Shown one piece after another: positions 8,222-29,600 of a stretch of 64,000 nucleotides of DNA (position 1 is its first letter; the number at the start of each line of letters is the position of its first letter). The DNA comes from Candidatus Poribacteria bacterium (lineage in GTDB: Bacteria; Poribacteria; WGA-4E; WGA-3G). The stretch spans positions 2,181,864 to 2,245,863 of the forward strand of contig OY282386.1 of NCBI GenBank assembly GCA_958295945.1. The letters are read 5' to 3'. The position numbers were made by a program, and so were the translations under genes. Below the pieces are notes generated by a model. It searched no databases. It saw nothing but the letters and a program-made list of their open reading frames with translations, and was not told the DNA's origin.

Positions 8222-10960
8222 TTAACCAACTGAGGCAATATCTAAATGTGCTTTCCAGTGCGCATTTAGCATTTTCTTCATCAACTGATGTTCAGGTCTT
8301 TCAAGATGAGGATCCTCTTTTATCAATTCAATCGCTTCTTTTTTTGCTGTTTCCAATAGTGTGGCATCACTAATAATATTGGCAATCTTGAATTTTGGTA
8401 GACCTGACTGACGTGTGCCGAAGAATTCTCCGGGACCACGAATATTCAAATCCTCTTCGGCAATAACAAAACCATCATTAGACCGAATCATCACTTGAAT
8501 TCTACGATACGATTCATCTGTTTTTGGTGTAGCAACAAGATAACAAAAGGATTTATCACTACCTCTACCGACTCTACCGCGCAACTGATGAAGTTGTGCT
8601 AAACCAAACCGTTCCGCATTTTCAATGACCATTAGAGTCGCATTCGGCACATCAATACCGACTTCAATGACAGTTGTTGATACCAATATATCAAGTTCTT
8701 GTGCATTAAACTGCGACATTATCTCCTGTTTTTCAACGGATTTCATCTGTCCATGTAACAATCCAACGCGCAACTGTGGAAAGACATCTTTCTGTATGTG
8801 CTCAGCCATACTCGTCGCAGCTTTCAACTCCTCCAGTTTTTCGGATTCTTCTACAAGTGGATAGACTATATATGCCTGTTTGCCTCTTTTAATCTCACGC
8901 TGAATTTTATTGTATAACTCTGAACGATCTTTCTCCTTTACCCATCTCGTATCAATCTTCTGTCTACCGGGTGGCATCTCATCAATCACAGAGATATTGA
9001 GGTCACCATATATCGTTAAGGATAATGTCCTCGGTATAGGTGTAGCAGTCATAACCAATACATCAGGTTCATACTTATCCTCGCTGCTCTGCCCATCTGC
9101 TGACTTTGCTTTTCCCATGAGTGTTGCCCGTTGCATCACACCAAATCTATGCTGTTCATCAATTATAACAAGTCCAAGTTTGTGGAATTCAACACCCTCC
9201 TGAATTAATGCTTGTGTGCCGACGATAATGTTTGCTGATCCATCGATAATTGCAGACAATGCATCTTCACGTTCAGCTTTTGGCAGATCGCTTTTGAGTA
9301 GCACTACCTCTACACCCAGAGGCGTTAACAAGGATGACAAATTCTGGTGATGTTGTTCAGCAAGGATTTCAGTTGGTACCATAATAGCACCTTGATAGCC
9401 GTTTTCAATTGCACATATCAACGCCATCGCAGCGACGGCAGTTTTACCTGAACCGACATCTCCTTGAATAAGACGGTTCATCACACGTTGGCTTTGCATA
9501 TCTCCACATATTTCATTGAAGACCCGTTTCTGAGCATTTGTCAAGGAAAAAGGTAAGGAATCAACAAACTTCTTTAGAAGATAACTTTCATTTTCTCTAT
9601 TATTATGTATCGCAAACATAATACCTTTTTGTGATGTTCTGTTGTCCTTTCGCATCTCCATTCCAAGGCTCAGTAGAAAGAATTCATCAAAAGCGAGTCT
9701 ACGTTGAGCAGCCTGTCTATGTGCTTCTGATGATGGATAATGAATCTCATGTATTGCTTGTTGACGGTCAAGTAATGCGTGTTTTTTTCGTAGTGAGAGA
9801 GGGAGGATTTCTGAGATTTCATCACCATGTTGGTCCAAGGCATTCCGGACAGCAGTTCGCACCATTCTTGCAGTTAGCTTCGCAGTTAAAGGATATTTTG
9901 GGACGATTCGCTTGGTATGAATAAGATTGTCTTCTTCAAATATCTCAAATTCGTAATCTGTTGTTTGGATTTCATTATAACGTCGAGTGAATTTGCCGCT
10001 AATCACCACCTCAGTATCAGCTGGCAGAATTGATTTGATATAACCGATTCTCCTACCGAAGTTCACTAATATCGCAACACCAGTACCATCATATATCGAA
10101 ACCTTACCAATGCTTTTACGCCCCTTCGCTACAGGAGGAGTCGTAACATGATTAACAACACGTCCCTGAATAGTCTCTGGTTCACCATCCTCTCTTCTGC
10201 CGACACTATATATTTCAACTGTTTTTGATCTATCAATGTAGTCTCGTGGATAGTATTCCAACAATCCACCAACAGTATGTATACCTATCTCGTCCGCCAA
10301 AATCTCAGCACGTTTAGGACCAATTCCCTTGACATATTGGAGAGGGTTGTTGAAAACATCAAGAGATTCTACATCTGTTGATACAGGGGTATCACCAAGT
10401 ATAACAGGAATATCCTTCTCATCATTTCCATCTGTCTCTGTTGTTGTATCTGCATCAAATGGTATTAAGGTTTCATTTGCATTCTGTGAATTACTATCTG
10501 AAGCAGTGTTATTTGTGGTCAGGTCGATATCTGGTGAGATGTCCAAATCTTGAAACAGCGGTAAGTTATCATTTTGGTTTGTTGATACCGGTTCTGTTTG
10601 TTTCTTATTAATAGGTTTGTTGGTTTTTTTTGAGGAAGTTGGAATATGTCCAGCATCTTTCTTAGGTAGTGTGTTGTCTAGAGTTTTTCCAGCAAGCGAT
10701 GCTTCAATCAATTCAGTTGCTTTTTCAATAGCACTTTTCCGTTCAATAGGTTTAAAATTGACATAATTCTCAAATAGTTCATCTATACGATTGAGAAACT
10801 GTGTTTCATCAGAGGTAAGATTGAGTTTCCTTGCATTTCCAACCCAGAGTCTAACATAATCTCCCATTCCATTGATAACTACATCGTCTTGACAACCCTT
10901 ACGAATTTCTTGCTGAAACGGACGACAAATGGTAGATAAAATTTGCTTATAATCGTTCAT
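8222..10960 (-). CDS. recG: ATP-dependent DNA helicase RecG with ~200-aa N-terminal extension
   Basis: YYPRDYIDR wedge region, QGDVGSGKT, IIDEQHRFG, MTATPIPRTL, TTVIEVGIDVPNA, QLRGRVGRG, RGPGEFFGTRQSG. Confidence 0.97.
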   Translation of the reverse strand: MNDYKQILSTICRPFQQEIRKGCQDDVVINGMGDYVRLWVGNARKLNLTSDETQFLNRIDELFENYVNFKPIERKSAIEKATELIEASLAGKTLDNTLPKKDAGHIPTSSKKTNKPINKKQTEPVSTNQNDNLPLFQDLDISPDIDLTTNNTASDSNSQNANETLIPFDADTTTETDGNDEKDIPVILGDTPVSTDVESLDVFNNPLQYVKGIGPKRAEILADEIGIHTVGGLLEYYPRDYIDRSKTVEIYSVGRREDGEPETIQGRVVNHVTTPPVAKGRKSIGKVSIYDGTGVAILVNFGRRIGYIKSILPADTEVVISGKFTRRYNEIQTTDYEFEIFEEDNLIHTKRIVPKYPLTAKLTARMVRTAVRNALDQHGDEISEILPLSLRKKHALLDRQQAIHEIHYPSSEAHRQAAQRRLAFDEFFLLSLGMEMRKDNRTSQKGIMFAIHNNRENESYLLKKFVDSLPFSLTNAQKRVFNEICGDMQSQRVMNRLIQGDVGSGKTAVAAMALICAIENGYQGAIMVPTEILAEQHHQNLSSLLTPLGVEVVLLKSDLPKAEREDALSAIIDGSANIIVGTQALIQEGVEFHKLGLVIIDEQHRFGVMQRATLMGKAKSADGQSSEDKYEPDVLVMTATPIPRTLSLTIYGDLNISVIDEMPPGRQKIDTRWVKEKDRSELYNKIQREIKRGKQAYIVYPLVEESEKLEELKAATSMAEHIQKDVFPQLRVGLLHGQMKSVEKQEIMSQFNAQELDILVSTTVIEVGIDVPNATLMVIENAERFGLAQLHQLRGRVGRGSDKSFCYLVATPKTDESYRRIQVMIRSNDGFVIAEEDLNIRGPGEFFGTRQSGLPKFKIANIISDATLLETAKKEAIELIKEDPHLERPEHQLMKKMLNAHWKAHLDIASVG

Positions 10961-16116: not shown

Positions 16117-16899
16117 CTAATGGATTAGCGGGAAAGGGTTAGAAACAGTTGTAAAATTTTGGTGACGATCTTCACCACGCAACAGAATAGGTTTCCAAGG
16201 ACGTTTCAACGAATTATCTTCTGCTTGCTTAACTGATGGAGAGATATAACGGACTGTCAGACCGCAACGCCTGCGAGTTGAATGGTTTGGTAGACTCCCA
16301 TGAATAATCTGACCATGATGTATTGACATCTCACCTGCTTTCAGGACCAAGTCAACAGCAGTGTTTGCGAGATCTTCGGTTACTGGAACTTCCTGATTGA
16401 TACTTAGCAGATTACCTTCCTGTTCAGATTTGCCGTGTTCTTGGATTCCTTTGTGGTGGCTGCCCGGTATCACCTGCATACACCCGTTACCAACGTCGCT
16501 GTCATCAATCGCATACCATGCAGTGACAGCATCTGGTGGTTCCAATCCCCAATATGTCACATCCTGATGCCATGCAACGAATTTCTCTCGTGGACCATAC
16601 TTGCAGAAAAAGTGTGTTGCCAGCAGCATCATATCTGGTCCAATAAGTGCTTCAATTACATCAAGGATCTTAGGGTGAGTGGAAATTTGCCAAATAAACT
16701 CATAATCAAAATGCCAATCAATGAGCCCAATTTCGCATTTTTCTTTACCCACTTCTGCCTCTAAGGCATCGTATTCTACACGATATTTCGATGCCTCAGC
16801 ATCATCTGCTACATGTATTCCAGTCAAATATCCATCTGTCTGATACATATTCAAGAGTTGTCCGTATGTTGATTTCATGTGATGTCCTCTTTCAATCAA
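16117..16899 (-). CDS. Phytanoyl-CoA dioxygenase (PhyH) family Fe(II)/2-oxoglutarate dioxygenase
   Basis: WHQD facial-triad motif, NGCMQVIPGSH, HHGQIIHGS, RRCG. Confidence 0.9.
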   Translation of the reverse strand: MIERGHHMKSTYGQLLNMYQTDGYLTGIHVADDAEASKYRVEYDALEAEVGKEKCEIGLIDWHFDYEFIWQISTHPKILDVIEALIGPDMMLLATHFFCKYGPREKFVAWHQDVTYWGLEPPDAVTAWYAIDDSDVGNGCMQVIPGSHHKGIQEHGKSEQEGNLLSINQEVPVTEDLANTAVDLVLKAGEMSIHHGQIIHGSLPNHSTRRRCGLTVRYISPSVKQAEDNSLKRPWKPILLRGEDRHQNFTTVSNPFPLIH

Positions 16900-16948
16900 G
16901 TTTTGGTATCTTCCATTGATGGAACCATTGAGAATCTTCAGGTATAAC

Positions 16949-19222
16949 TTAAATATTTACCTCTACAATCGTCATTGTATCATTGCCGAAAATGTCTACA
17001 ACCTTGACAGCAATTTTTCTGGAACCCGGTTTGCATTCATGTGCTATGCTCTTTAATTCCAAAGACCGATCCTTCTTGGTGCGAAAACTTTGCCACTCAT
17101 TTTCAAAGACATACTCGCCTGTCCACTGTTCTTTCCACGCCTCTGTATCTGTGTCCTGCACACGGATAATCTCGCGTTTACTCTCAAATTCAAAATCAAC
17201 AGACCAATAATCTATCCAGTCAGTCCATTCTTTCGTCAAAATATCTTTCGTAACGACCCCCTCAGAATCTTTGCTAACCTTTACAACTTGTCCTTTTTCC
17301 ACGACAATTTTACTGCTTTTGTTCTTTAGTGTTTGTTCAGCACCTGAGATTGAATCTTGTGAATAGAAAACAGAGAAATCGGTCAATTCTACCGTTACTG
17401 TCGCTGGTCTATCATTTTTACCATTTGTAGTATGCGTTTTCACTTCAATGAACGCTACATCATGAAACACAACTTGATTCTGCTCCACTGCGCGTTTGTC
17501 AAATACTTCCGCGGGGATGTATTTCGGTGCAAGGTCAATGCCTTTATCTTTCGCTTCCTGTAACACATTGGGAAACAATCCCATCTCAAACTCAAAACCG
17601 AGAACGTCAACACGGGTAACCTGATGTCTTCTGCATTCAAGGATAATCTCTTCTATGAATAGACGCGTTACTGGTAAATTGACGGGCCCAATTGCGATTA
17701 ACCTGCCCGCTTTTTTACCTGGAAAACTGGCAAAACCTTCAGCCTTTTCGGCAGAATAAGCGCGTAGGATAAGGTCAATAAATGTCTTTTCCTTTTCTTC
17801 TAACTGTTGCTGTTGTTCTAACTCTCGTAGGTTTGGATTGACACCGACATAGTGCTGACGTTCATATTTGCCGAGGTTGAGGATTTCAAAGGCACGGTAG
17901 TCTTCACCCTCCTTTTTAAGTTCACGTTGTACTCCGATCAACCGTTTTCGTGTGGTGTGAATGGCAAACTTGCCGAGGTCTGTGACAATCCACTTGCGTC
18001 CAAGTTTTTCTGCAACGGCAGCAGTAGTCCCTGACCCACAGAAAAAGTCAGCGACAAGGTCACCTTCATTAGAAGATGCTTCTATGATGCGTTCAAGTAA
18101 GGCTTCAGGTTTTTGTGTCGGATAATCAAGAATCTCTGCAGTCGTACCTTGCAAATTTGGAATATCATCCCACAAATTGTTTGCTAACTTTCCTTCATTT
18201 TCACGCTCATTCCAATAAGCTTTTTCCTGAAGAGTATTTCCTTCTAAATAGAGTCTGTTTTCATTTTCCAACGTTTTTAACTTTTCATATTTCATCCGCC
18301 ATCCCTTTTTAGGACATTTCCATGTTTTTCCATTATTATCAATATAATCGTATGTCGTTTCGGGTCCAGGACTAGCAGTTTTTTGCAGTGGATAGAGTCT
18401 ATAATTTCCCCTGCCATCTTCATCATTCCTAGTATACATTGCTTTTGTAGTAGGGGATAAGGGTTTAAAAACTGAGTTTACTATGTATTTATCACTTTTA
18501 GAATACCAAAATATTGTATCTGTGTCCCTAGATAAGTTTCTTGAAATTGTCTTACCACTAGAACTTCTTTGCCAAATAATTTCATTATGAAAATTATCGC
18601 TTCCGAACACTTCATCTAAAACGAGCCTTAAAAAACCAGAAACCCGCCAATCACAATGGGCATAAATACTACCATCTATTGCCATCAAGTCTCGCATCAG
18701 AATCAGCCTCTCGTAAATCATAGCGATGAAAGAGTCCGCACCTTTCCCCCAAGTATCACGGTAGGCAATTTCTTCCAGGATATTCGGGTTTTTGGTAAGC
18801 GTTTCACCACCTATCTCAATATCCATAGAAAAATCCGCACCTACGTCAAAGGGTGGGTCAATATAGATAAGTTTGAGTCCATCTTGTGCCTCAATTTCCT
18901 CGCGCAGTGGTCCGTTCTTGAGTGATGATAGTATCAGTTTGTTATCACCCCAGATTAACTTGTTTGTCCAGCCTTTGCGTTGTCTGCCGCGTTCATCAAA
19001 TAAACCGAGTTGTTCACTGGATTCTGCACGTGGTTCGTCTACGTGTTCAATAGTCTGGAATGGTAGTACGATGTTGCAAACTTCGTTTGTCTTGCCATTC
19101 CAAACGAGTTCTACTTCGCGTTTGTCTTCAAAGAGCAGGAAGCGGTATTTTTCGGGTAGTGGTTTGTCTGCTTCTATGTAGCGGATGATTTCTTGCTGTT
19201 CTGATTCTGTGAGTCGTGGCAT
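16949..19222 (-). CDS. mod: Type III-like R-M modification methyltransferase (beta-class N6-adenine MTase)
   Basis: IYIDPPF motif IV precedes TRD and [19 protein letters not shown] motif I; C-terminal [14 protein letters not shown]. Confidence 0.9.
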
Positions 19223-19298
19223 ATTTTGTCTTTCGTTATTTTTCGTTAATGTTTACCTGTTTTGGGACTTTTTCCGATTTCCACTGCTTTGGTTCTAA

Positions 19299-19889
19299 TT
19301 ACCAAATGTTGGTGAGTCTGTAAGTTGACTCAATATGTATTTTCATGCCGTTGTCAGTAGCCTTAACAAGATTTTTGAAGAATGCCTCAGTGTCTTGAGC
19401 GGTTTTGCTCGTTAGGCGGATGTTTCCACTCGGTGATCGTGTCCAATCGTAAGGTGGCATATCAAAACCGTGCGCGAAACTATGACGAACACGTAAGATC
19501 TCATTCAATCTTGCACGCACCTGAAAACCGTTCATCCTACGTCGACTCCATATCCAATCGTTGATAGGATCATATCCTGTACAGTCTACAAGAAATTTCT
19601 GTGTATTTTCCCAGTTCGGCGTATTAAATCTCCCCGATGCTCTTTCTGCTGCTTGCTGGGCGATCACGTAAACAGGAGATGAATTAGGTATCACATCGTA
19701 GAAGTCCCGCACGAGGTTTTTTATGTATCCGTTCCATACTGCAACATAGGCCGTAAGTGCTGCGTGATAGTAAACCTGTATTTCATCATTGTGCAACATA
19801 GGATGCAACTGCTTATCTGTTGCAGTCCTGCGAAGTGTCTGTATGCGATTTACTGAGGTTGTGTAGGTTGATAATGCTGGTGATGGCAC
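19299..19889 (-). CDS. HEPN-domain protein (putative RNase)
   Basis: All-helical pattern with N-terminal Y.AVW..Y and LNEILRVRHSFAHG RxxxxH motif at 19470-19487; starts 9 bp after the ParA stop. Confidence 0.75.
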   Translation of the reverse strand: MPSPALSTYTTSVNRIQTLRRTATDKQLHPMLHNDEIQVYYHAALTAYVAVWNGYIKNLVRDFYDVIPNSSPVYVIAQQAAERASGRFNTPNWENTQKFLVDCTGYDPINDWIWSRRRMNGFQVRARLNEILRVRHSFAHGFDMPPYDWTRSPSGNIRLTSKTAQDTEAFFKNLVKATDNGMKIHIESTYRLTNIW

Positions 19890-19898
19890 AAGAAACCT

Positions 19899-21002
19899 TT
19901 AGAGACAATTTACAAATTCGGTGAGTGCTTTCCGATACTGATTTAATGGATCGGGATTGAGTTGAACCTGTTTACCGTGAACCATATTTGGTCCGGCTTG
20001 AAGGTCATTCAAAGGTATTCCTTTAAGTGTCATAATAACACAAGCACTGTGATAGTCAGGTATCTCTATAAACCTTTGACTTGGTGAATCTTTCGGTGTT
20101 GCGTAGATTTGACGGTGCTTTTTGTGGAGCTCATCCAACGTGACTTTAATGGACTCATTCACTGCCTTAAAAGCTTTGCTTGCTTTGCGGCCATAGAGGG
20201 TTACACGATTACTAACAAAGGTGTGGAGTTTCGGAACATCTAGTTCTTTCTCCTTCGCTCTATTAGCAAAGTTGATTCTTGCATAAGTATCTATTTTGGG
20301 ATCACTTATACCGTGGCCATAAAGCAGTGCGACGACATTCTCCAAAGCGCGACGCGAACTATCATCTGGTGTAAAAGGAATAATAAGATTTTCGGCTGCA
20401 GCGAGAGCCAATTGGGTGTAGATGGCGAAACTCGGATTACAGTCAATGATAAAAAGTGCATCTCGATTCCCGCTCCGCTTACGTAATGCAGATGTTAAAT
20501 CTTTGATCCAACTGAGGACTTGCTTCCAAGCATCCACTGGGATGGCAAGTTGTGAAGTTTGACGAATTGCTTCCGATAGAATTTCCAGTAGATAGTCACC
20601 GCAAACTAAACGCAAATTTCCTGGAAGTCTTGAGTTAAAGTCCTTAGGGTGACAAAAATACGGAGATACATTTTCAATGACACGGAAAGGAGAATTCAAC
20701 CGTGCTTCAATGTAACCCGCAACTGTAGCACGTGGCGTTTGTCCTATCAGTTTATTTATAACATCATAATTTTTGTGAATTACATTATAATTTTCGTCAT
20801 CGGATACTTCATCGTTATCATCAGAATTAGTTAAAATATCAGAATTCAGAAGTAACATCTCAGATACATTTGCTTGGGGGCAAAGGTCTATAACATAGAC
20901 ATCAGTGTCCGGATATGTGCGTGCATACTCGGTTGCTGCAACAAAACTTAAGAAACTCTTCCCGACCCCTCCTTTGTTGTTCCAGAATGCGTAAGCTGTC
21001 AT
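19899..21002 (-). CDS. ParA/Soj/MinD-family ATPase
   Basis: Deviant Walker A NNKGGVGKS, VIDLCPQAN, IIDCNPS Walker B. Confidence 0.9.
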   Translation of the reverse strand: MTAYAFWNNKGGVGKSFLSFVAATEYARTYPDTDVYVIDLCPQANVSEMLLLNSDILTNSDDNDEVSDDENYNVIHKNYDVINKLIGQTPRATVAGYIEARLNSPFRVIENVSPYFCHPKDFNSRLPGNLRLVCGDYLLEILSEAIRQTSQLAIPVDAWKQVLSWIKDLTSALRKRSGNRDALFIIDCNPSFAIYTQLALAAAENLIIPFTPDDSSRRALENVVALLYGHGISDPKIDTYARINFANRAKEKELDVPKLHTFVSNRVTLYGRKASKAFKAVNESIKVTLDELHKKHRQIYATPKDSPSQRFIEIPDYHSACVIMTLKGIPLNDLQAGPNMVHGKQVQLNPDPLNQYRKALTEFVNCL

Positions 21003-21137
21003 AATATAACCCCCTCAAAAAAATGAAAACACATAATAAATCTCGTTTAAAATTCTAACACAAATTGGTATGAATGTCAAAAGCTTGTTGCTTTTTGCTT
21101 TTGCAACGCTACATTATCATTGACAAGACTTACACAT

Positions 21138-21218
21138 TCCCCCTTGATAAGGGGGTTAGGGGTTAAAAAGTCGTTATTCAGTGATTTGCCCCCTAAATTC
21201 CCCTTATCGGAGGGACTT
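21138..21218. repeat. REP-like inverted doublet (CCCCCTTGATAAGGGGG family)
   Basis: tcccccttgataagggggttagggg 21138-21162 and ccccctaaattccccttatcggagggactt 21189-21218. Confidence 0.7.
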
Positions 21219-21248
21219 TAAGATAAGAGGAAATGCGTCCATCCTCCG

Positions 21249-21626
21249 TTATTTCTCGTTATTGTCTTCCTGTTCTGGTTCGTCTATTTCAAGGACTTGT
21301 ACGACAGGATCTCCAATATTTACAATGGCTCTGCTCAAAGATAATAGAGATTTACTAAATGAACCTTTGCCTCCTGATGACAAAGGTTTGTCTTTTGAGA
21401 ATAAAACAGTTATATGTTCTTGAACATCATCAACGTATAAATAAACAATAGGCCATTCAACCTTACCTATTTCTTTAGACGTATCAGGATCTCTTACAGG
21501 AATAATTTCTGAGATATAAAACTCCATACCGTAAGTTACACCATCTACCTCACCTATATTTATTACGAGTGCCCTTTCGTTCAAAATTCGTGCTACTTTA
21601 CCGCGAATTGGTTTAGTTTGTGTCAC
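21249..21626 (-). CDS. Small beta-rich hypothetical protein (FlgT C-terminal-like pattern); probable GTG start at 21626
   Basis: GKVARILNERALVINIGEVDGVTYGMEF..VRDPDTSKEIG; SD GGAGGG before GTG; overlaps the upstream gene stop. The ORF track starts at 21656. Confidence 0.7.
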   Translation of the reverse strand: MTQTKPIRGKVARILNERALVINIGEVDGVTYGMEFYISEIIPVRDPDTSKEIGKVEWPIVYLYVDDVQEHITVLFSKDKPLSSGGKGSFSKSLLSLSRAIVNIGDPVVQVLEIDEPEQEDNNEK

Positions 21627-22089
21627 TATCAATCCCTCCTTGTATTTTAGATTCAAGTTGTTGTTTTAACTCTTCTACATCTTCTGGAACAATGTCTCTC
21701 CAATCTTCCAATGCATCATCTGCTGCGTTTAGTTGCTCAGTAACAATTGCGTCAAGTTTGGCAACTAATACTTTATAGTCTTCTGGAGATTCCAAATTGT
21801 TTATTGATTGTATCTCAGTTGAAGCACGCGAAAGACTCTCGTAGAGTGAAACAAGACGTCTAAAAGCAGATCGTGCATGTGGTTTGATTATTTCTTTTGC
21901 TACTTCTTTAGCAGACTGTCGACCAAAAATAAAAGAACCTGTAAGTCCCGCGGTAAGGACAAAAACTTGCCAAATTGTACTTTCTACAGTGGTTAAAACT
22001 CTTGTAGTTGTTGTGTAAATGACTAAAACTGATACACCCAAAGAGATTAAGATTAGAAAACTTGCAAGAACCCAATTTAAGTTTTTCAT
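21613..22089 (-). CDS. Two-TM membrane protein with cytoplasmic helical domain, hypothetical
   Basis: Two hydrophobic helices (LNWVLASFLILISLGVSVLVIY; IWQVFVLTAGLTGSFIFG) then amphipathic helices. Confidence 0.75.
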   Translation of the reverse strand: MKNLNWVLASFLILISLGVSVLVIYTTTTRVLTTVESTIWQVFVLTAGLTGSFIFGRQSAKEVAKEIIKPHARSAFRRLVSLYESLSRASTEIQSINNLESPEDYKVLVAKLDAIVTEQLNAADDALEDWRDIVPEDVEELKQQLESKIQGGIDSDTN

Positions 22090-22157
22090 AATTTACTATT
22101 GTATCAAAAAATGTGGTGTTTGTCAAAAAATGAGGATGTTTATTGAGAGCTTTATCA

Positions 22158-24845
22158 CTACGGTTTGTATTCTGTAAAACCGTCAAGCAATTGCTGAAAA
22201 GTTGTCGGTGAATATGTTCTGAAACTCTCCTCGTCAACAAAAACAAAATCATAGTCAACATCGGTTGAGATTTCGTTAACATCCTCACACCATTGCGATA
22301 AACGTTCCATCTTGAGCGGTACATCTAAATCTTCTAATCCCTTAGTTTCGACTACAACTACACTGCCATCCATCAATTTGACGATAAAATCGGGATAGTA
22401 ATTAGAAATATCACCATCAGCATTGACATAATCAAGTTTAAACTGCACGCCATAATAGTTTTTTGTATAGGATACAACGTCCGGGCACGCCTCCAGAAAT
22501 TTAGCGAATTCCAATTCCAAATGACTATCACCTGTGATGATGTTGAATACAGATTTTGACGGTACTAAATGGTCTTGGTCTTTGACTATAAAGGGTCTTG
22601 TACTGCTGATTTTAGAAGTTTCGCTTAATTCTGCATTTCCTTTGTCCTGGACTGTAAGGTCATTGATTGCACGTTTGAATGTTTCAATAATCGTTTTTGT
22701 GGCGCGGAGTTCCGCGAGATTTTTTATGGTGATGGGATCGTCTAATGCTACCGTTTCACCAAAGAGATGGTGCTGGACAAATTCTTTTACCTTTGCATAC
22801 AACACATCATAACCGCCGACAAGTCGGAGTTCTTTCATTAGAGTTTGGGCAAAATAACCGAGAGCGTTTCGGTAGTCTTCTGTACCTGGACTTTCCAATA
22901 CTGTCGTATGTGCGACTTCGCTTGTCGTCATATATCGGAATTCAATTTCTCGTATCTCGGTTTCGCCAAACTGTTCATACTCAACAGGTTCAAAGTCAAG
23001 GCGTGTAACGTCCAAGTCTGCGAGATTGTTGTACTCACGGTAAACACGGCGCGTCAAAATGGGAATTTCAATATCAAGCGCGCCGATGTCTTTGTCCACA
23101 TTTTCCTTGTCAACCTCAATAACAAGAGGTGCTATGGGTTTTGTGCCTTCTCCCATTTCTTTGCGTTCTAATTCGACCCCTTCCTCTTGAATCTTTTCAA
23201 CAAAATCCATGAAGGCATCTGTACCGATGACACTAACAGACTCATCTACTGAATTATTATACATTCGCCTGAGGCCGCGTCCTAAGGTCTGTTCTGGTAG
23301 AATGTTGGCTTTTGCAGAATATGCACGGAGCCCAACAATGGTTGTAACGTTCTTGACATCCCACCCCTCTTTAAGCATTAAAACGGAAACAATTGCCTTA
23401 TATGGATTTTTGTCTATCGCTAAATCGATCGCATTCGCTTGCTTTCGAAGCTCTTCAAGTTCTTCTTTCTTTTTTCCAGATGTAGCCTCAGAGATTTCAC
23501 CATTATTCTTTGTATGAATCACCAGTACAGCATCTTTTAAGTCTTGGTAATGGTTTTCAAGATAAGTTGCTACCTCATCGCAGTTTTTCGTATCATCGGT
23601 CATCACAAACAGAATGGCTTTCTTACCCAACTTTTCGTGTCGTTCGAACGCTTTGCGCCACTCAACCACACCCAGGTGGAGATAGTCCGCATACTTCTCT
23701 GTAAACTTCACACTCTGTTTTTCCTCAAGTTTCTTCCTGCTTTCATCATCTGGAAGAATAGGGTGTTTCACGACGTTTTGTGAAATAGCCTCTACAAGCG
23801 GATAATCCGCGACTGTCTGGACAAAAATTGCACCGTTATTATGCTTTGGGGTTGCAGTTACATCAACTTGTAATGATAACTCGCTGTCTTTTTGCACAAG
23901 GCGATTGCGGATATCCTCAATTGACTTGAACCATGCCATCTTTGGATCATGGATATGATGTGCTTCATCGTTAAGTACCATCAATTCGTCAATATCTCGG
24001 ACGATGTCCCCGAGGTCCACTTTGGAATCTGTTGTTGCACCAGTCGGTTTTTTACCTAAGTAGTAATCCATACTGTTATCATCATCGGGGGATGGTGGTG
24101 TTTGGTCACTGGAATAGACGCGGTGAATATTCGTGAGAAAGATGTTACCTGTAGGCCGGACAGTTCGCACTTCATCTTGTACATGCAAGGTGAGTTGAAA
24201 ATCATTTCTCCAATTCTGACCTTCATAACCGTTGTCTGGTAACACTGGGTCATCAAAAAAGATGCTTAATCCTTTGAAATCATGATAAAGCCTGTCAAGG
24301 ACAATGATATTAGGTGCAATGACAAGAAAATTTCGAGAGAGTTCAGAATCTGTTTCATACAACTTGTGAAAGAAACTCCATGCGATAACAAGACTCATCA
24401 CCTTAGTTTTACCTGTGCCTGTTGCCATTTTTATGACGAATCGTTTCCAATTTTCGTCAAACATTCCTCTTGAAACAGCACCTGAACTGTCAAACTTTAT
24501 CAAATCAACTTCATCTTGGACCTTGACGACATCATAGAGGTAGACAATAGTTTCCAGTGCTTCGCGCTGTGCGAAATAGTACTGAAATTCTGTTGTTGTA
24601 CCATCAGATTGTTCTCTCAAGTGCGGTTCCTTGAACCACCAATTGAGTAGTGCTTTGCTTGTTTCAGATGCACCTCTATAGTTGTCATCACGCCAAGTCT
24701 TAACTGCATCACGTATCTTTTGTACGAGTGGTGGGAGTAACGTCCCCATGCCTGTCAAGGGCATCTGTGCGACATCAGGTGTCCAGCGCACAGAAGGGTC
24801 AATGATTTCGTGTGGTGATTCAGGAAATTCTGGGTGTAATGGCAT
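22158..24845 (-). CDS. res: Type III-like restriction subunit (SF2 DEAH helicase + C-terminal PD-(D/E)xK nuclease)
   Basis: FAQREALET, KMATGTGKT, LNDEAHH, MLKEGWDV, EQTLGRGLRRM, YYPDFIV..VVETKG. Confidence 0.9.
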   Translation of the reverse strand: MPLHPEFPESPHEIIDPSVRWTPDVAQMPLTGMGTLLPPLVQKIRDAVKTWRDDNYRGASETSKALLNWWFKEPHLREQSDGTTTEFQYYFAQREALETIVYLYDVVKVQDEVDLIKFDSSGAVSRGMFDENWKRFVIKMATGTGKTKVMSLVIAWSFFHKLYETDSELSRNFLVIAPNIIVLDRLYHDFKGLSIFFDDPVLPDNGYEGQNWRNDFQLTLHVQDEVRTVRPTGNIFLTNIHRVYSSDQTPPSPDDDNSMDYYLGKKPTGATTDSKVDLGDIVRDIDELMVLNDEAHHIHDPKMAWFKSIEDIRNRLVQKDSELSLQVDVTATPKHNNGAIFVQTVADYPLVEAISQNVVKHPILPDDESRKKLEEKQSVKFTEKYADYLHLGVVEWRKAFERHEKLGKKAILFVMTDDTKNCDEVATYLENHYQDLKDAVLVIHTKNNGEISEATSGKKKEELEELRKQANAIDLAIDKNPYKAIVSVLMLKEGWDVKNVTTIVGLRAYSAKANILPEQTLGRGLRRMYNNSVDESVSVIGTDAFMDFVEKIQEEGVELERKEMGEGTKPIAPLVIEVDKENVDKDIGALDIEIPILTRRVYREYNNLADLDVTRLDFEPVEYEQFGETEIREIEFRYMTTSEVAHTTVLESPGTEDYRNALGYFAQTLMKELRLVGGYDVLYAKVKEFVQHHLFGETVALDDPITIKNLAELRATKTIIETFKRAINDLTVQDKGNAELSETSKISSTRPFIVKDQDHLVPSKSVFNIITGDSHLELEFAKFLEACPDVVSYTKNYYGVQFKLDYVNADGDISNYYPDFIVKLMDGSVVVVETKGLEDLDVPLKMERLSQWCEDVNEISTDVDYDFVFVDEESFRTYSPTTFQQLLDGFTEYKP

Positions 24846-24876
24846 AATTGCCTCTTTCCAACATCAATATTAACTT

Positions 24877-25062
24877 TCACTCATTCCATTCCTTGAAAAC
24901 AACACCGCATCTTGGACACTGTGTTGACAAACCCGTTTGTCGCTGCCCACAGTTCGGACACCATGTTCTGATTCCTTGTTTACGCCGATACATCGTTAAT
25001 ATGATCATCCAAACTACTACAAGAATGATGGCAATGAGTGGAAAAGCAATTTGATTATACAT
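24877..25062 (-). CDS. Small single-TM protein with C-terminal zinc ribbon
   Basis: Hydrophobic N-terminus then CPNC-x10-CPRC; 31 bp upstream of res. Confidence 0.6.
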   Translation of the reverse strand: MYNQIAFPLIAIILVVVWMIILTMYRRKQGIRTWCPNCGQRQTGLSTQCPRCGVVFKEWNE

Positions 25063-25117
25063 TGTTTTCTATCATCCACCCTTCAAAAGACTCATCTCAT
25101 TTCTGAGTTAATGAACA

Positions 25118-25990
25118 CTAATTGATCAGGTTCAAAGTTCTGCATATCTTCTTTGCACCAGCAAGATTAGGCTGCAACTCAAATGCCATCAATAAAACCT
25201 GACGTGCATGTGGGAACAAGTCTATTTCAACATAAAATTCAGCAATCTTTTTATACATCCATGCAGTTTCACGTTTCGGTAGATTTAGATCCTGAATCTT
25301 TGACAACGGAATGTGACACATCTGTTGATGGCCTTCAACACTATAATGGTAAAGATAGATTCTCTTGAGACGATCCTTTACCTCTGTAATAAAGTGCTTG
25401 AAGCAGGGACGTTGTCCTTCTGCAGACAATAATGTCTCGTAAATGTGCATCGCTTGTTCTAAATTTCTGTGTCGGTCTGAAATAGAACAATCTCCATTTG
25501 CAAATCCGAGATTCTGATATGCTTCTGCAAGAAGGAATTCGCAGTCGCGACTATCTTCATAGTTGAAGAAATCATCTGGACACCATTTCGTGCCATTACT
25601 CTCACATTTCTCACAGAGCTGCTCATACATGGAGATACCGATTTCATAGTTCCGGTGCAAGAGCGCGTGAAACAACAACTCCAATTTTGCCCAATCAGAG
25701 TTGATTTGATTTAGTCTGTCATAATACGATTGATATTTCTTTTGTTTGCATTCAATATTCTGTATTCTTCGATCATATTCAGATTTACGTTTGGCGTCAG
25801 AAAGCACATCATAAGCATTCAAAACATCGCGGAACATCTGTTCTGTACATCCAATTTGATCCGGACTGAAGTTGATGTTAATCTTGTCTGGATGGTATCT
25901 CTTTGCGAGTATTCTAAATGCCTTTTTTATTTCGGATGCAGAGGCATCACGTTGAATCTCTAAAATTTGATAATAGTTTGGAATACGCAT
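25118..25990 (-). CDS. DnaJ (J-domain) protein with C-terminal TPR-like helices
   Basis: NYYQILEI..ASASEIKKAFRILAKRYHPDK, AYDVLSD..RSEYD; SD AAGGAG-like site not seen, ATG start from ORF track. Confidence 0.85.
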   Translation of the reverse strand: MRIPNYYQILEIQRDASASEIKKAFRILAKRYHPDKININFSPDQIGCTEQMFRDVLNAYDVLSDAKRKSEYDRRIQNIECKQKKYQSYYDRLNQINSDWAKLELLFHALLHRNYEIGISMYEQLCEKCESNGTKWCPDDFFNYEDSRDCEFLLAEAYQNLGFANGDCSISDRHRNLEQAMHIYETLLSAEGQRPCFKHFITEVKDRLKRIYLYHYSVEGHQQMCHIPLSKIQDLNLPKRETAWMYKKIAEFYVEIDLFPHARQVLLMAFELQPNLAGAKKICRTLNLIN

Positions 25991-26669: not shown

Positions 26670-29600
26670 CTAAATTATTTCACGGAGGAAACGAGCAGTA
26701 TGTGATTCTTTCACTTCAGCCACCTCTTCAGGTGTGCCCATCCCTACAATGTATCCTCCAGCATCACTTCCCTCAGGTCCCAAATCAATAACCCAATCAG
26801 CAGATTTAATGACATCCAGATTATGTTCAACTGCAACGATGGTATTACCTGCATCAACAAGTTTATTTAGGACATTGAGAAGTTTCTGTACATCATCAAA
26901 GTGTAGCCCGGTTGTGGGTTCATCCATGATATAAAGGGTCTTTCCAGTCTGTCTTCTTGCAAGTTCCTTCGCAAGTTTAACACGTTGTGCTTCTCCACCA
27001 GAAAGTGTAGTCGCCGCTTGACCCAATTGGATATAATCCAAACCCACATCTGCTAAAGTTTGAAGTGTGCGTTTAATCCGGTTGATGTTACTAAACAGTT
27101 CAAGTGCCTCTAGTACTGTCATCTGTAACACTTCGGCTATGTTTTTGCCTTTGTATTTCACTTCAAGCGTTTCAGCATTATATCCTGTGCTATCACAGTT
27201 TTCACAAGGTATCCATACATCGGGTAGGAAATGCATCTCAACACGATTGTAACGTTGTCCGTCACATACTTCACATTGCCCATAAGATAGGTTGAAACTG
27301 AAACGTCCACGATTAAACCCACGAAGTTTTGCATCAGGTAATTCAGCATACATTTCTCGGATTTTTGTAAATAAGTCGGTATAGGTTGCTGGATTAGATC
27401 GTGGTGTTTCACCTATCGGTTTCTGATCAATATGTATCATACGTTCAACAGAGCTTACACCTTGTATTTTGTCATAGTTCTCAGTTACATTGTTTTTTCC
27501 AGTGTTCTTTTCATTTTCCCGATTTGATTTCCTGGATTCCATCGCAGGTCGTAATGTGCCTTCAATCAGTGAACTCTTTCCACACCCAGAAACACCCGTC
27601 ACACAGGTAAGCGTTCCTATTGGAATGCTTATGTCAATGTTTTTAAGATTGTTAGTTCTTGCACCGAACAGTTTAAGCCATTTTCCAGAACCTTTCCGAC
27701 GAACCGCAGGAACAGGGATTTGCATTTCATTTGATAAGTATGACTGTGTTAATCCTTTTTTGGCTGTAAGATTTGCATCTCTTGCAGATTCATCTCCATT
27801 ATCTGATTGAATGGTAGTTTCTATAGAAATTGGTTCTGAGTTGGCAAATGCACTTGGTGTTCCAACCGCAACTATTTCTCCTCCCTGTTTTCCTGCATTT
27901 GGACCGAAATCAATAACATGATCTGAAGACATAATCGTATCTCTGTCGTGTTCAACAACCAGAACACTATTACCGATGTCGCGCAGATCTTTCATTGCAT
28001 ATATCAACCGTTCTTGATCGCGCGGGTGCAGACCTATACTCGGTTCATCAAGGATATAAGTAACCCCAGTAAGTCCTGTTCCAAGTTGGCTTGCGAGACG
28101 AATTCTACGGATCTCTCCACCTGAAAGCGTTGGGGCAGTTCTATCTAAACCGAGGTATCCAAGACCGATATCTTCTAAAAAACTCAGTCGTAACTGAATT
28201 TGCCTTAAAAGTTGAGCTTCAAATTCAGGTGATGTATGCGCATGAAGTCTTGGGTGAGTTGCCCTTGAAGTAGAAACGTCTTGCACTTGCTTCTTTGCCG
28301 TTTCTGCTTCCTTAGCACCTGCAGTTGTTGTTAGATGTTTCTCAATCGTTACAATCTGTCCACTGAAAAACGACGAAATCTCAGCGATTGACAAAGCCAT
28401 CAATTCTGCAATTGTTTTGTCAGTATATCTGACATTTCTTGGAAATTCGTCTAATCTTGTCCCATCACATTCATCACAGATTGATTGATCATCACTTAAT
28501 TCTCTACCAATACCATCACAAGTGCTGCATGCACCTAATCTATTGTTGAATGAGAAGTGACGAGGTGTTAGTTGCGGAAAATTCCGTCCACATTTTGAAC
28601 ACATAGCGTGTTCACTGAAGAAATGTCTTTCGGCTAATTCTTTATTATCATTTGGTTCTATGATAACAAAACCTTCACTTTCAATGAGTGCTAATTCTAC
28701 TGCCTCAGTGAAACGACTTGTCTCATCTTCAACAAGCTTCAAACGATCAATGACCAAGAATACTTCATGTCGACGACGTTTTCTGATATCAGGTGCTTCA
28801 TCAAGCCTATGGATTTCACCATCAATCTGTACGCGAGCAAATCCTGTTCGTTGCAGTCTTTGAAATGCATCGGCATAATCCTCGTTTCCCTTTAGACCTG
28901 GTGTCCGTTCTGCACCAATAACCACCTCAGTATCATTTTCGATAGATTTGAAATTCGTGAGTGGTGAAAGTACATCTACTCTTTTGCCTTTCAGATTCTT
29001 GAAAGAACGTTCTACAATCTGCTGTGCTGTTTGTGGACGAACTACCACTTCACATGATGGACAGTACGGTTGACCCCATCTGGCATATAGTGTTCGAAGA
29101 CCGTCATGGATTTCAGTTATCGTTGCAACGGTAGAACGCGGGTTTTGACTTGGACTTGAGTGAGTAATAGCAATTGCAGGTGACAATCCTTCAATCTTAG
29201 AGACTTTCGGTTTGTCCATACTTCCAATAAATTGACGTGCATAAGTGCTAAGTGTCTCAATGTATCTTCGTTGTCCTTCCGCGTAAATTGTATCAAGGGC
29301 AAGAGATGTTTTGCCAGATCCACTAACACCTGTAAACGCTGTCAACTTCTGATGCGGTATTTCAATATTAATGTTCTTAAGGTTGTTCTCACCTGCACCT
29401 TGAACCAAAATGGATTTACGCATTTCGGATTGTTTTTGATCAAGAAGATCTTGTGCGATATCACCGTTTTCTTTAACTGAAGGTTCAGATTTCACCGATT
29501 TCCATAGATCATATTCCCCATGTAATGCTTTTCCAGTATACGATTCGGATATATCTTTCACCTCTTCAGGCGTGCCAACTGCAATAATCTGCCCACCATC

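What the first reader, a model, noticed from the sequence alone, without database searches (positions are those of the whole stretch)
19299..21002. ParA-family ATPase + HEPN RNase two-gene module with no ParB/parS
ParA (KGGVGKS, DLCPQAN) is followed 9 bp later by a 196-aa protein with an intact HEPN RxxxxH motif (RHSFAH). No ParB partner is present and it sits inside an R-M locus, so partitioning is unlikely. Inference: an ATPase-gated RNase (toxin-antitoxin or abortive infection) where ParA senses DNA or nucleotide state and controls HEPN. This is the best candidate for a poorly characterised defence system in the window; ParA-HEPN neighbourhoods may have been noted computationally, which I cannot verify.
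Basis: partly seen in the sequence, partly recalled or inferred. Interest (0 to 1): 0.8.

Follow-up and report, generated by a model that had tools for sequence, protein, structure and literature searches.

The report
ParA-type ATPase plus HEPN RNase module
Two tightly linked genes, a ParA-like ATPase and a predicted HEPN RNase, form a small mobile operon. Here it sits as cargo between the two genes of a restriction-modification system in a sponge-symbiont (Poribacteria) genome. It is most likely an untested toxin/abortive-infection type defence module, of a design predicted on paper in 2013.

Summary
The ParA-like ATPase gene (19899-21002, minus strand) has an intact deviant Walker A. Nine nucleotides downstream lies a 196-aa gene (19299-19889) with an invariant RHSFAH motif, and it matches Pfam HEPN_RiboL-PSP above threshold.

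The pair is a real, co-inherited unit:
- ParA sits directly upstream of the HEPN gene in 39 of 39 assessable genome loci. These come from Poribacteria, Caldilineaceae, Thiotrichaceae, Methylobacter, Paracoccus and an actinomycete.
- The same holds in cultured Ralstonia, Delftia and Stenotrophomonas.
- Gene spacing is -4 to +15 nt. Pairwise identities of the two proteins correlate (r = 0.95).
- The pair carries its own conserved promoter.

It is optional cargo, not a restriction-modification subunit. None of 80 related Res loci carries it, and that slot holds other conflict genes instead (RhuM, PIN, Schlafen, KilA-N). Many pairs stand alone among housekeeping genes.

There is no ParB, no centromere-like repeat, and no match to any PADLOC defence model. 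The only precedent found is a 2013 computational prediction of ParA/Soj-HEPN toxin-antitoxin dyads, made for a different HEPN family (MAE_18760).

The mechanism (ATPase-gated RNase) remains inferred. Structural confirmation of the HEPN fold was inconclusive. I rate it a new variant of a predicted but uncharacterised kind, of moderate interest, and testable in cultured hosts.

The parts
19899..21002 (-). ParA/MinD-class (SIMIBI) deviant-Walker-A ATPase, 367 aa. It is the first gene of the module and carries a variable acidic insert at about residues 53-78.
   Evidence: Pfam AAA_31 46.7 bits > 27. PHROG ParA-like 1.3e-31. Invariant K10, G11, G14, K15, D39, D187. Foldseek top hits are DIP2308, Soj, ParA, McdA and MinD, although the model is weak (pLDDT 64).
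19299..19889 (-). Stand-alone HEPN-domain protein, 196 aa, GTG start, catalytic motif R135-H-S-F-A-H140. Predicted metal-independent RNase effector.
   Evidence: Pfam PF18735 39.5 bits > 28.4. 89 of 91 family representatives hit PF18735. R135 is invariant. The AF2 model is all-alpha, with the motif at the end of the penultimate core helix, as described for HEPN.
19890..19898 (-). 9-nt spacer between the ParA stop codon and the HEPN start codon (operon, probable translational coupling).
   Evidence: Sequence. Spacing is -4 to +15 nt in 41 intact pairs, and exactly 9 nt in 28 of them.
21052..21080 (-). Near-consensus sigma-70-type promoter of the module (TTGACA-17-TAGAAT with TG extension), about 50 nt upstream of the ParA ATG.
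   Evidence: 11 of 12 match. The same promoter lies about 78 nt upstream of ParA in about 20 Poribacteria loci, whatever the upstream gene.
21003..21127 (-). Conserved leader/promoter region that travels with ParA and marks the 5' boundary of the cassette.
   Evidence: Alignable with L001 and L009 from about 21127 to the ATG, whereas the sequence upstream differs.
22158..24845 (-). Context: Type III-like restriction subunit (Res; helicase plus C-terminal endonuclease-like region).
   Evidence: Pfam ResIII 8e-17. PADLOC REase_III 7e-21. NCBIfam BPTD_3080 family 272 bits, below the cut-off of 800.
16949..19222 (-). Context: Type III-like DNA methyltransferase (Mod).
   Evidence: Pfam N6_N4_Mtase 2e-44. 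PADLOC MTase_III 2.4e-113.
21249..22126 (-). Separate inserted mini-operon with its own promoter (22098-22126): sm158 (21613-22089, two predicted TM helices plus an acidic coiled-coil tail) and sm135 (21249-21656; probable GTG start at 21626). It is not part of the ParA-HEPN module but shares the same cargo slot.
   Evidence: The same pair occupies a different position, between HEPN and mod, in six other loci. No family match.

Best explanation
This is an autonomous, horizontally mobile two-gene operon. It encodes a ParA/MinD-class ATPase followed by a HEPN RNase of the RiboL-PSP-HEPN family. Its most likely function is a toxin-regulator conflict module of the toxin-antitoxin / abortive-infection type.

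Proposed mechanism (inferred):
- The HEPN protein is the effector. It cuts RNA through its Rx4H site and arrests translation.
- The ATPase is translated first from the same mRNA and holds the RNase inactive in its ATP-bound dimer state.
- The RNase is released when that state collapses, for example through ATP depletion, loss or damage of the DNA matrix to which ParA-type dimers bind, or a phage factor.

In this window the operon is cargo in the variable slot between res and mod of a Type III-like restriction-modification system. There it would act as a second, RNA-directed line of defence, but it does not depend on that system.

Shown: gene structure, family membership, strict linkage, co-inheritance, own promoter, optional embedding, absence of partition partners.
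Inferred: RNase activity, toxicity, ATPase gating, the trigger, and the defence phenotype.
For: - Strict linkage. ParA is directly upstream of HEPN in 39/39 assessable genome loci across several phyla. The same holds in a Ralstonia megaplasmid, in Delftia, Stenotrophomonas and Ralstonia chromosomes, and in two remote representatives. Starting from the ParA side, HEPN follows in 3/3 places with enough DNA.
- Operon structure. Spacing is -4 to +15 nt in 41 pairs. Pairwise identities of the two proteins correlate at r = 0.95, Mantel p = 0.001.
- Intact catalytic residues. The motifs of both proteins are invariant or nearly so.
- Own promoter. A near-consensus promoter and leader are conserved across different upstream contexts.
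- Cargo behaviour. 0/80 loci with 60-73% identical Res carry the pair. In 33 of the 59 that hold both genes, the mod/res gap holds other conflict genes: KilA-N, PIN, Schlafen+HATPase_c_4, Bro-N, RhuM, and an AAA_15/21 ATPase with a partner.
- Retention without the restriction system. In one chromosomal context L009 has Res-ParA-HEPN-Mod, while L031 and L034 keep only ParA-HEPN. L013, L017 and L002 keep an intact pair next to decayed res/mod remnants.
- Defence neighbours elsewhere. These include Mrr_cat, Type ISP enzyme, PLD, AbiEii, SymE, AspBHI/Mrr and STAND-like ATPases.
- Precedent. The design principle was predicted as a toxin-antitoxin pair by Anantharaman et al. 2013. That paper also documents that at least 16 HEPN clades are linked to restriction-modification systems, and uses the PrrC paradigm.
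Against: - No experiment exists. No tool here could test toxicity, RNase activity, protein-protein contact or phage defence.
- Foldseek found no significant similarity between the HEPN model and solved HEPN structures (best E 0.24). HEPN entries 1ylm, 7ae6 and 1jog appear only at E 1-3 with TM 0.33-0.47, and only one of five AF2 models was confident.
- ParA is more conserved than HEPN in 96% of comparisons (50% vs 27% identity at deep divergence). This is unusual for a simple antitoxin and suggests the ATPase has a constrained activity of its own.
- No homologue was found in phages or in PADLOC defence models, so nothing ties the pair directly to phage biology.
- Many pairs sit among housekeeping genes with no defence neighbours.
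Confidence: 0.6

Rival explanations
1. A pure addiction (toxin-antitoxin) module with no role in phage defence. ParA neutralises the HEPN toxin by an ATP-dependent conformational change or by phosphorylation, as Anantharaman et al. proposed. The pair persists because losing it kills the cell, which incidentally stabilises the island it sits in.
For: The regulator-first gene order and tight coupling fit. The pair is retained intact where the flanking res/mod genes have decayed or vanished. It stands alone among housekeeping genes in Ralstonia and Caldilineaceae. The HEPN gene is broken while ParA is intact in L035 and L037, and toxin loss is tolerated in such systems. This was the 2013 prediction.
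Against: The putative antitoxin evolves more slowly than the toxin. Defence-gene neighbourhoods recur and the pair occupies a slot that otherwise hosts conflict genes. Toxin-antitoxin and abortive-infection roles are not mutually exclusive, so this rival differs mainly in the trigger.
Confidence: 0.2
2. A dedicated guard of the Type III restriction-modification system, analogous to PrrC with EcoprrI. The ATPase-HEPN complex is kept latent by contact with Res/Mod and fires when a phage anti-restriction factor disables them.
For: In 20 of 40 genome loci the pair lies directly after res and before mod, and 3 further loci hold remnants. NTPase + HEPN inside a restriction-modification operon is the PrrC/RloC architecture discussed in PMC3710099.
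Against: 0/80 related Res loci carry it. The pair occurs without any Res/Mod in Caldilineaceae, Proteobacteria and some Poribacteria, with its sequence and own promoter unchanged. The ATPase is ParA-class and a separate polypeptide, not a fused ABC ATPase.
Confidence: 0.1
3. A true positioning/partition ATPase whose small downstream partner is a non-catalytic adaptor, in the manner of ParG, McdB or MinE. On this reading the HEPN-like protein only stimulates the ATPase or links a cargo.
For: ParA-class ATPases normally work with a small partner encoded immediately downstream. The ATPase is highly conserved, as expected for a machine acting on DNA.
Against: The Rx4H catalytic motif is invariant across the whole family. 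No ParB domain and no centromere-like repeats are present. NCBIfam ParA_partition scores 39 bits against a cut-off of 180. The pair is chromosomal, single-copy, and sits in restriction or defence contexts. The HEPN family also occurs without ParA inside other restriction-modification loci.
Confidence: 0.05

Closest known systems
ParA/Soj ATPase + MAE_18760-family HEPN gene dyad (computational prediction; Anantharaman, Makarova, Burroughs, Koonin, Aravind 2013, PMC3710099)
   Same: A two-gene unit with a ParA/Soj-like SIMIBI ATPase 5' of a stand-alone Rx4-6H HEPN gene. It was predicted to be a toxin-antitoxin pair with the ATPase as antitoxin.
   Different: The HEPN here scores as Pfam RiboL-PSP-HEPN (PF18735, 39.5 bits). 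It is below threshold for the MAE_28990/MAE_18760 model (PF18737, 18.7 bits against 26.8), and only 5 of 91 family representatives touch PF18737. The 2013 table lists the RiboL-PSP family as 'operon with ParB', not ParA. I could not obtain MAE_18760 sequences for a direct comparison. Neither dyad has been tested experimentally in any paper I could find.
PrrC / RloC anticodon nucleases embedded in restriction-modification loci
   Same: An NTPase coupled to a HEPN-type RNase, located between restriction-modification genes. In the paradigm the RNase is latent and backs up restriction (established knowledge of PrrC-EcoprrI).
   Different: PrrC and RloC are single polypeptides with an ABC-type ATPase, found in Type I loci. 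Here there are two polypeptides, a ParA-class ATPase and a Type III-like locus. The pair is frequent without any restriction-modification system.
HepT-MntA (HEPN/MNT, type VII toxin-antitoxin)
   Same: An upstream nucleotide-using enzyme and a downstream Rx4H HEPN RNase toxin in a tight two-gene operon.
   Different: The partner here is a Walker-type ATPase, not a minimal nucleotidyltransferase that AMPylates the toxin. No evidence of covalent modification.
Abi2/AbiD/AbiF and other defence HEPNs (ApeA, PD-T4-2, PD-T4-5, PD-T7-3)
   Same: HEPN effectors in validated anti-phage systems. PMC3710099 describes the RiboL-PSP family as distantly related to AbiD/AbiF. A review lists PF18735 among domains of PD-T4-2, PD-T4-5, PD-T7-3 and ApeA.
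   Different: No PADLOC model of these systems matches either protein even at E <= 1. None of them has a ParA-class partner.
ParABS / ParA-type positioning systems (Soj-Spo0J, ParF-ParG, McdAB, MinDE)
   Same: The same ATPase class with all nucleotide-binding motifs, and a small partner gene immediately downstream.
   Different: No ParB, ParG, McdB or MinE-like partner and no centromere. The ATPase has about 100 extra C-terminal residues and scores far below the NCBIfam partition equivalog cut-off.

Membership tests
ParA/MinD-class SIMIBI ATPases | Deviant Walker A KGGxxGK[ST] including the N-terminal signature lysine | tested here: met
   K10-G-G-V-G-K15-S16. K10, G11, G14 and K15 are invariant in 100 homologues.
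ParA/MinD-class SIMIBI ATPases | Walker A' (switch I) aspartate and Walker B aspartate | tested here: met
   D39 in VIDLCPQ and D187 in FIIDCNPS are both invariant.
ParA/MinD-class SIMIBI ATPases | Profile match above curated threshold, and ParA-like fold | tested here: met
   Pfam AAA_31 46.7 bits > 27. PDB profile hits to ParA/Soj at about 4e-5. All Foldseek top hits are ParA/Soj/McdA/MinD with probability 1.0, but the model pLDDT is only 64.
ParABS-type partition system | Adjacent ParB or adaptor gene, and a centromere (parS or iterated repeats) | tested here: not met
   The downstream gene is a HEPN. No neighbour has a ParB domain. No iterated repeats occur in 16800-25200.
ParABS-type partition system | NCBIfam ParA_partition equivalog score of at least 180 bits | tested here: not met
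   39.3 bits.
HEPN superfamily | Rx4-6H motif with a polar residue after R | tested here: met
   R135-H136-S-F-A-H140. R135 is invariant, and H136 and H140 are at least 90% conserved in 91 representatives.
HEPN superfamily | [quoted passage not shown] | tested here: met
   AF2 model with pLDDT 89.9: helices 34-66, 72-87, insert 93-111, helix 121-139 carrying the motif at its end, a loop, then helix 161-190. This matches the description in PMC3710099. Caveat: only 1 of 5 models was confident.
HEPN superfamily | Significant structural similarity to a solved HEPN domain | tested here: inconclusive
   Foldseek against PDB gave no hit at E <= 0.001. HEPN entries 1ylm, 7ae6 and 1jog have the best TM scores (0.33-0.47) but E 1-3. 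Profile searches of PDB sequences found nothing.
HEPN superfamily | Metal-independent RNase activity | not testable with these tools
   Requires biochemistry.
Pfam RiboL-PSP-HEPN (PF18735) | Score above the gathering threshold over most of the model | tested here: met
   39.5 bits > 28.4, profile positions 15-187 of 191. 120 of 120 close homologues carry PF18735. 89 of 91 representatives match. There is no fusion to an L-PSP domain; the proteins are about 200-aa solos.
MAE_18760 HEPN family (the family of the published ParA/Soj-HEPN dyad) | Match to PF18737 above the gathering threshold | tested here: not met
   18.7 bits < 26.8, N-terminal 58 residues only. 5 of 91 representatives match at E <= 0.01.
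MAE_18760 HEPN family (the family of the published ParA/Soj-HEPN dyad) | ParA/Soj ATPase gene immediately 5' of the HEPN gene | tested here: met
HepT-MntA type VII toxin-antitoxin | Minimal nucleotidyltransferase (MNT) partner | tested here: not met
   The partner is AAA_31/CbiA. No nucleotidyltransferase domain was found.
PrrC/RloC | ABC-type ATPase fused to the HEPN nuclease in one polypeptide | tested here: not met
   Two separate genes, and a ParA-class ATPase.
Known anti-phage systems in PADLOC-DB v2.0.0 | HMM match of either protein | tested here: not met
   No family at E <= 1 for ParA or HEPN.
Toxin-antitoxin system (generic) | Toxicity of one product, neutralised by the other | not testable with these tools
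   Only indirect hints: gene order, coupling, retention after loss of the restriction-modification genes, and broken HEPN genes beside intact ParA in L035 and L037.

The most novel reading that the evidence does not exclude
The ParA-class ATPase would be the sensor of an immune module, not a mere antitoxin. As an ATP-dependent dimer spread on the nucleoid, it would tether and silence the HEPN RNase. It would release the RNase when the chromosome is degraded or displaced, or when ATP falls during infection. That would be a 'nucleoid/energy integrity' sensing principle not described for any defence system, and a new job for the ParA family. The unusually strong conservation of the ATPase fits a universal ligand rather than a fast-evolving phage protein: about 50% identity where the RNase has dropped to about 27%.
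Probability: 0.15. Interest if true: 0.8.

Novelty: new variant of a known kind. Interest (0 to 1): 0.55.

Why it matters
If the module works as proposed, it adds a ParA-class ATPase to the short list of NTPases that gate HEPN RNases (ABC in PrrC/RloC, MNT in HepT-MntA, CARF/SAVED ligands in CRISPR). It would also turn a 2013 paper prediction into a testable system.

The family is rare: 359 representatives among 1.84 billion clusters. It nevertheless occurs in cultured, genetically tractable bacteria (Ralstonia solanacearum complex, Burkholderia, Delftia, Stenotrophomonas, Comamonas, Variovorax), so the experiments are straightforward.

The locus is also a clear example of 'guilt by embedding'. 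One Type III-like restriction-modification family serves as a docking slot for many different small conflict cassettes. These include a second unknown two-gene unit in this very window.

Tried and rejected
1. Structural proof of the HEPN fold. Foldseek of the AF2 model against PDB and against BFVD gave no significant match. PDB sequence-profile searches with a shallow and a deep alignment also failed. Membership therefore rests on the Pfam profile, the motif and the helix topology.
2. Idea that the N-terminal 25-residue helix of the HEPN protein is a ParA-stimulating peptide (as in ParB, ParG or MinE). Rejected as specific evidence, because the MxSxAxxxF N-terminus is also present in family members without a ParA neighbour (P0319, P0338).
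3. Idea of an operator-like inverted repeat around the promoter. It is seen in one Poribacteria subgroup but is not conserved in the subgroup that includes the window, so I dropped it.
4. Phage origin. There is no tblastn hit of the HEPN protein in 50,697 phage records and no PHROG for it.
5. Plasmid partition role. Plasmid hits are few (7 records). The Ralstonia megaplasmid copy is the same ParA-HEPN pair, whereas the actinobacterial plasmid homologues lack ParA.
6. Direct comparison with MAE_18760. The paper's supplement held no sequences or identifiers.
7. The ParA AF2 model was too weak (pLDDT 64) to interpret the C-terminal extension or DNA-binding surfaces.
8. Literature searches for an experimentally characterised ParA-HEPN system returned only the 2013 paper.
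Full report
OBSERVATION. All genes of the region lie on the minus strand, in this order:
- res, 22158-24845, 895 aa.
- sm158, 21613-22089.
- sm135, 21249-21656.
- The ParA-like gene, 19899-21002, 367 aa.
- The HEPN gene, 19299-19889, 196 aa, GTG start.
- mod, 16949-19222, 757 aa.

KGGVGKS is at residues 10-16 and DLCPQAN at residues 39-45 of the ATPase. RHSFAH is at residues 135-140 of the second protein. The ParA stop codon and the GTG start are separated by 9 nt. The GTG start is supported by the conserved N-terminus (M1, S3, A5) in homologues.

FAMILY ASSIGNMENT, ATPase.
- It passes Pfam AAA_31 (46.7 bits against 27) and matches a PHROG of ParA-like proteins (1.3e-31).
- It reaches only 39 bits on the NCBIfam partition-ParA equivalog, whose cut-off is 180.
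- K10, G11, G14, K15, D39 and D187 are invariant in 100 homologues.
- The AF2 model is weak (pLDDT 64). Even so, its Foldseek hits are exclusively ParA/Soj/McdA/MinD-class proteins, led by the uncharacterised 361-aa DIP2308 (3pg5).

FAMILY ASSIGNMENT, second protein.
- It passes Pfam HEPN_RiboL-PSP (39.5 bits against 28.4, nearly full model length). It is below threshold on the MAE_28990/MAE_18760 model.
- All 120 listed close homologues carry PF18735. So do 89 of 91 representatives clustered at 50% identity, against 5 for PF18737.
- Across those representatives R135 is invariant. W52, T90, P91, D107, W112, H136, A139, H140 and G141 are at least 90% conserved.
- The best AF2 model (pLDDT 89.9; the other four models were poor) is all-helical. 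The motif sits at the end of the penultimate core helix, and an insert lies between the second and third core helices. This is the HEPN topology as described in PMC3710099.
- Foldseek against PDB gave no significant hit. Solved HEPN domains (1ylm, 7ae6, 1jog) had the best TM scores but E-values of 1-3. The fold test is therefore inconclusive. Membership rests on the profile, the motif and the topology.

FAMILY SIZE. The family is small. It has 359 representatives at E <= 0.001 among 1.84 billion clusters, and almost all are stand-alone proteins of about 200 aa.

LINKAGE. A scan of one genome per species found 40 loci: about 30 Candidatus Poribacteria, 6 Caldilineaceae, and one each of Thiotrichaceae, Methylobacter, Paracoccus and an actinomycete.
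- In all 39 loci with upstream DNA, the ParA homologue lies immediately upstream on the same strand.
- The same pair occurs on a Ralstonia pseudosolanacearum megaplasmid, with ParA at 45% and HEPN at 33% identity.
- It also occurs in Delftia acidovorans, Stenotrophomonas acidaminiphila and Ralstonia chromosomes, and in two remote metagenomic representatives.
- Starting from ParA homologues instead, HEPN_RiboL-PSP followed in all three places with enough DNA.
- In 41 intact pairs the spacing is -4 to +15 nt, and exactly 9 nt in 28 of them.
- Pairwise identities of the two proteins correlate (r = 0.95, Mantel p = 0.001).
- ParA is the more conserved partner in 96% of comparisons: 68% against 55% on average, and 50% against 27% at deep divergence.
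- More remote HEPN relatives have no ParA. These are the Rhodococcus and Streptomyces plasmid copies and representatives P0319, P0330 and P0338. They sit in Type IIG/ISP, GmrSD or Zorya-like neighbourhoods. The ParA linkage therefore defines one clade of the family.

AUTONOMY.
- A near-consensus promoter (TTGACA-17-TAGAAT with a TG extension) lies at 21080-21052. It is conserved about 78 nt upstream of ParA in about 20 Poribacteria loci, regardless of the upstream gene.
- Alignment with the closest loci, L001 and L009, shows that the leader from about 21127 to the ATG travels with ParA.
- The same alignment shows that sm158-sm135, with its own promoter at 22126-22098, is a roughly 1.03-kb insertion between the res stop codon and that leader.
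- The GC skew of 19-21 kb is positive, while flanking genes on the same strand are negative.

RELATION TO THE RESTRICTION-MODIFICATION SYSTEM. Mod and Res are Type III-like (PADLOC MTase_III 2.4e-113, REase_III 7e-21; Pfam ResIII).
- Among the 40 genome loci, 20 have the order Res-ParA-HEPN-[variable slot]-Mod. The slot is empty or holds an Mrr_cat endonuclease, sm158-sm135, or unknown proteins.
- Three further loci keep an intact pair beside decayed res/mod remnants.
- In one shared chromosomal context (Lpd ... PfkB), L009 has the full Res-ParA-HEPN-Mod, while L031 and L034 have only ParA-HEPN.
- All Caldilineaceae and proteobacterial copies lack Res/Mod and often lie among housekeeping genes.
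- Conversely, 80 metagenomic loci with Res at 60-73% identity contain no ParA or HEPN. Of the 59 with both genes, 26 have mod and res abutting. The other 33 carry other embedded genes: KilA-N, PIN, Schlafen/AlbA_2+HATPase_c_4, Bro-N, RhuM, and an AAA_15/AAA_21 ATPase with a partner.
- The pair is thus one of many alternative cargo cassettes of this restriction-modification family, not one of its subunits.

MECHANISM. Shown: a co-transcribed, co-inherited ATPase-HEPN pair with intact catalytic residues, its own promoter, mobility, and no partition partner.

Inferred: the HEPN protein is a metal-independent RNase effector, by analogy with PrrC, RNase L, HepT and Cas13 (established knowledge; PMC3710099). 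The ATPase, made first, controls it. The 2013 paper proposed an ATP-dependent conformational change or phosphorylation.

I favour ATP-state gating (confidence about 0.6 for the overall toxin/abortive-infection reading, and lower for the gating details). The stronger conservation of the ATPase argues that it does more than mask a toxin, perhaps by binding a universal ligand such as DNA.

The rivals are pure addiction, a PrrC-like guard of the restriction system, and true partition. Each is weighed in its own section of this report.

COMPARISON WITH WHAT IS KNOWN.
- The closest precedent is the computational ParA/Soj + MAE_18760 HEPN dyad. The present pair shares the architecture but fails the MAE_18760 profile test and falls in the RiboL-PSP-HEPN family. 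The 2013 table annotates that family as 'operon with ParB'.
- No PADLOC model matches either protein.
- A review lists PF18735 among domains of PD-T4-2, PD-T4-5, PD-T7-3 and ApeA, but those models did not hit.
- Source annotations call the proteins 'hypothetical', 'HEPN domain-containing' or 'ParA family'.
- Full-text searches found no experimental work.

VERDICT. I rate the finding a new variant of a predicted but uncharacterised kind, with interest 0.55.

Noticed in passing
window 21249-22126 (minus strand): A second unknown two-gene cassette. sm158 has two predicted TM helices and an acidic coiled-coil tail. sm135 probably starts at the GTG at 21626, behind an AGGAGGG. The cassette has its own near-consensus promoter at 22126-22098. 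It is a roughly 1.03-kb insertion relative to L001 and L009. In L004, L011, L014, L027, L028 and L002 the same pair sits on the other side of ParA-HEPN. No Pfam, NCBIfam or PADLOC family matches (the only PHROG hit is weak, E 0.0055), so it is a candidate small membrane-effector conflict module.
   Followed up: partly
L005, L007, L008, L010, L012, L013, L019, L020, L021, L026, L035 at about 8600-9900: An Mrr_cat restriction endonuclease of about 302 aa (Pfam 3e-17) is the commonest occupant of the slot between HEPN and mod in Poribacteria. It also follows the pair where Res/Mod are absent. Other occupants are an unknown protein of about 245 aa (f17) and a 382-aa protein (f53).
   Followed up: partly
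L044-L123 (metagenomic relatives of res/mod): This Type III-like restriction-modification family is a docking site for diverse embedded cargo between mod and res: KilA-N, PIN, Schlafen/AlbA_2+HATPase_c_4, Bro-N, RhuM, and an AAA_15/AAA_21 ATPase with a 193-aa partner. Gene order is Mod-Res in most relatives but Res-...-Mod in the Poribacteria clade.
   Followed up: partly
window 21140-21154 and 21200-21214: Two copies, in inverted orientation, of a 15-nt G/C-clamped hairpin motif CCCCTTATCRRGGGG lie between sm135 and the ParA promoter. None of 100 shuffles gave two matches. They may be a terminator/insulator or a junction scar of the inserted cassette.
   Followed up: partly
window 26670-32387 (minus strand): A 1905-aa ORF that reads as two complete UvrA-like units fused in one frame. 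The N-terminal UvrA signature recurs near residue 960. Judged from the translation only.
   Followed up: no
L035 8001-8593, L037 8001-8599, L040 6955-7988: The HEPN gene is split or frameshifted while ParA is intact in two Poribacteria MAGs. The ParA gene lies in three frames beside an apparently intact HEPN in an actinomycete MAG. The latter may be a sequencing error; if real, it would argue against a constitutively toxic HEPN.
   Followed up: no
window 19001-21000: GC skew is positive (+0.07, +0.02) over ParA-HEPN, whereas the flanking res, mod and neighbouring genes on the same strand are negative. This is consistent with foreign origin of the pair.
   Followed up: no
ParA-like protein, residues 41, 134, 188 and about 53-78: Three invariant cysteines: C41 replaces the usual Asp in the DxDPQ switch motif, and the others are C134 and C188. 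An acidic low-complexity insert is present in 360-373-aa versions and absent from 342-344-aa versions of the ATPase.
   Followed up: no
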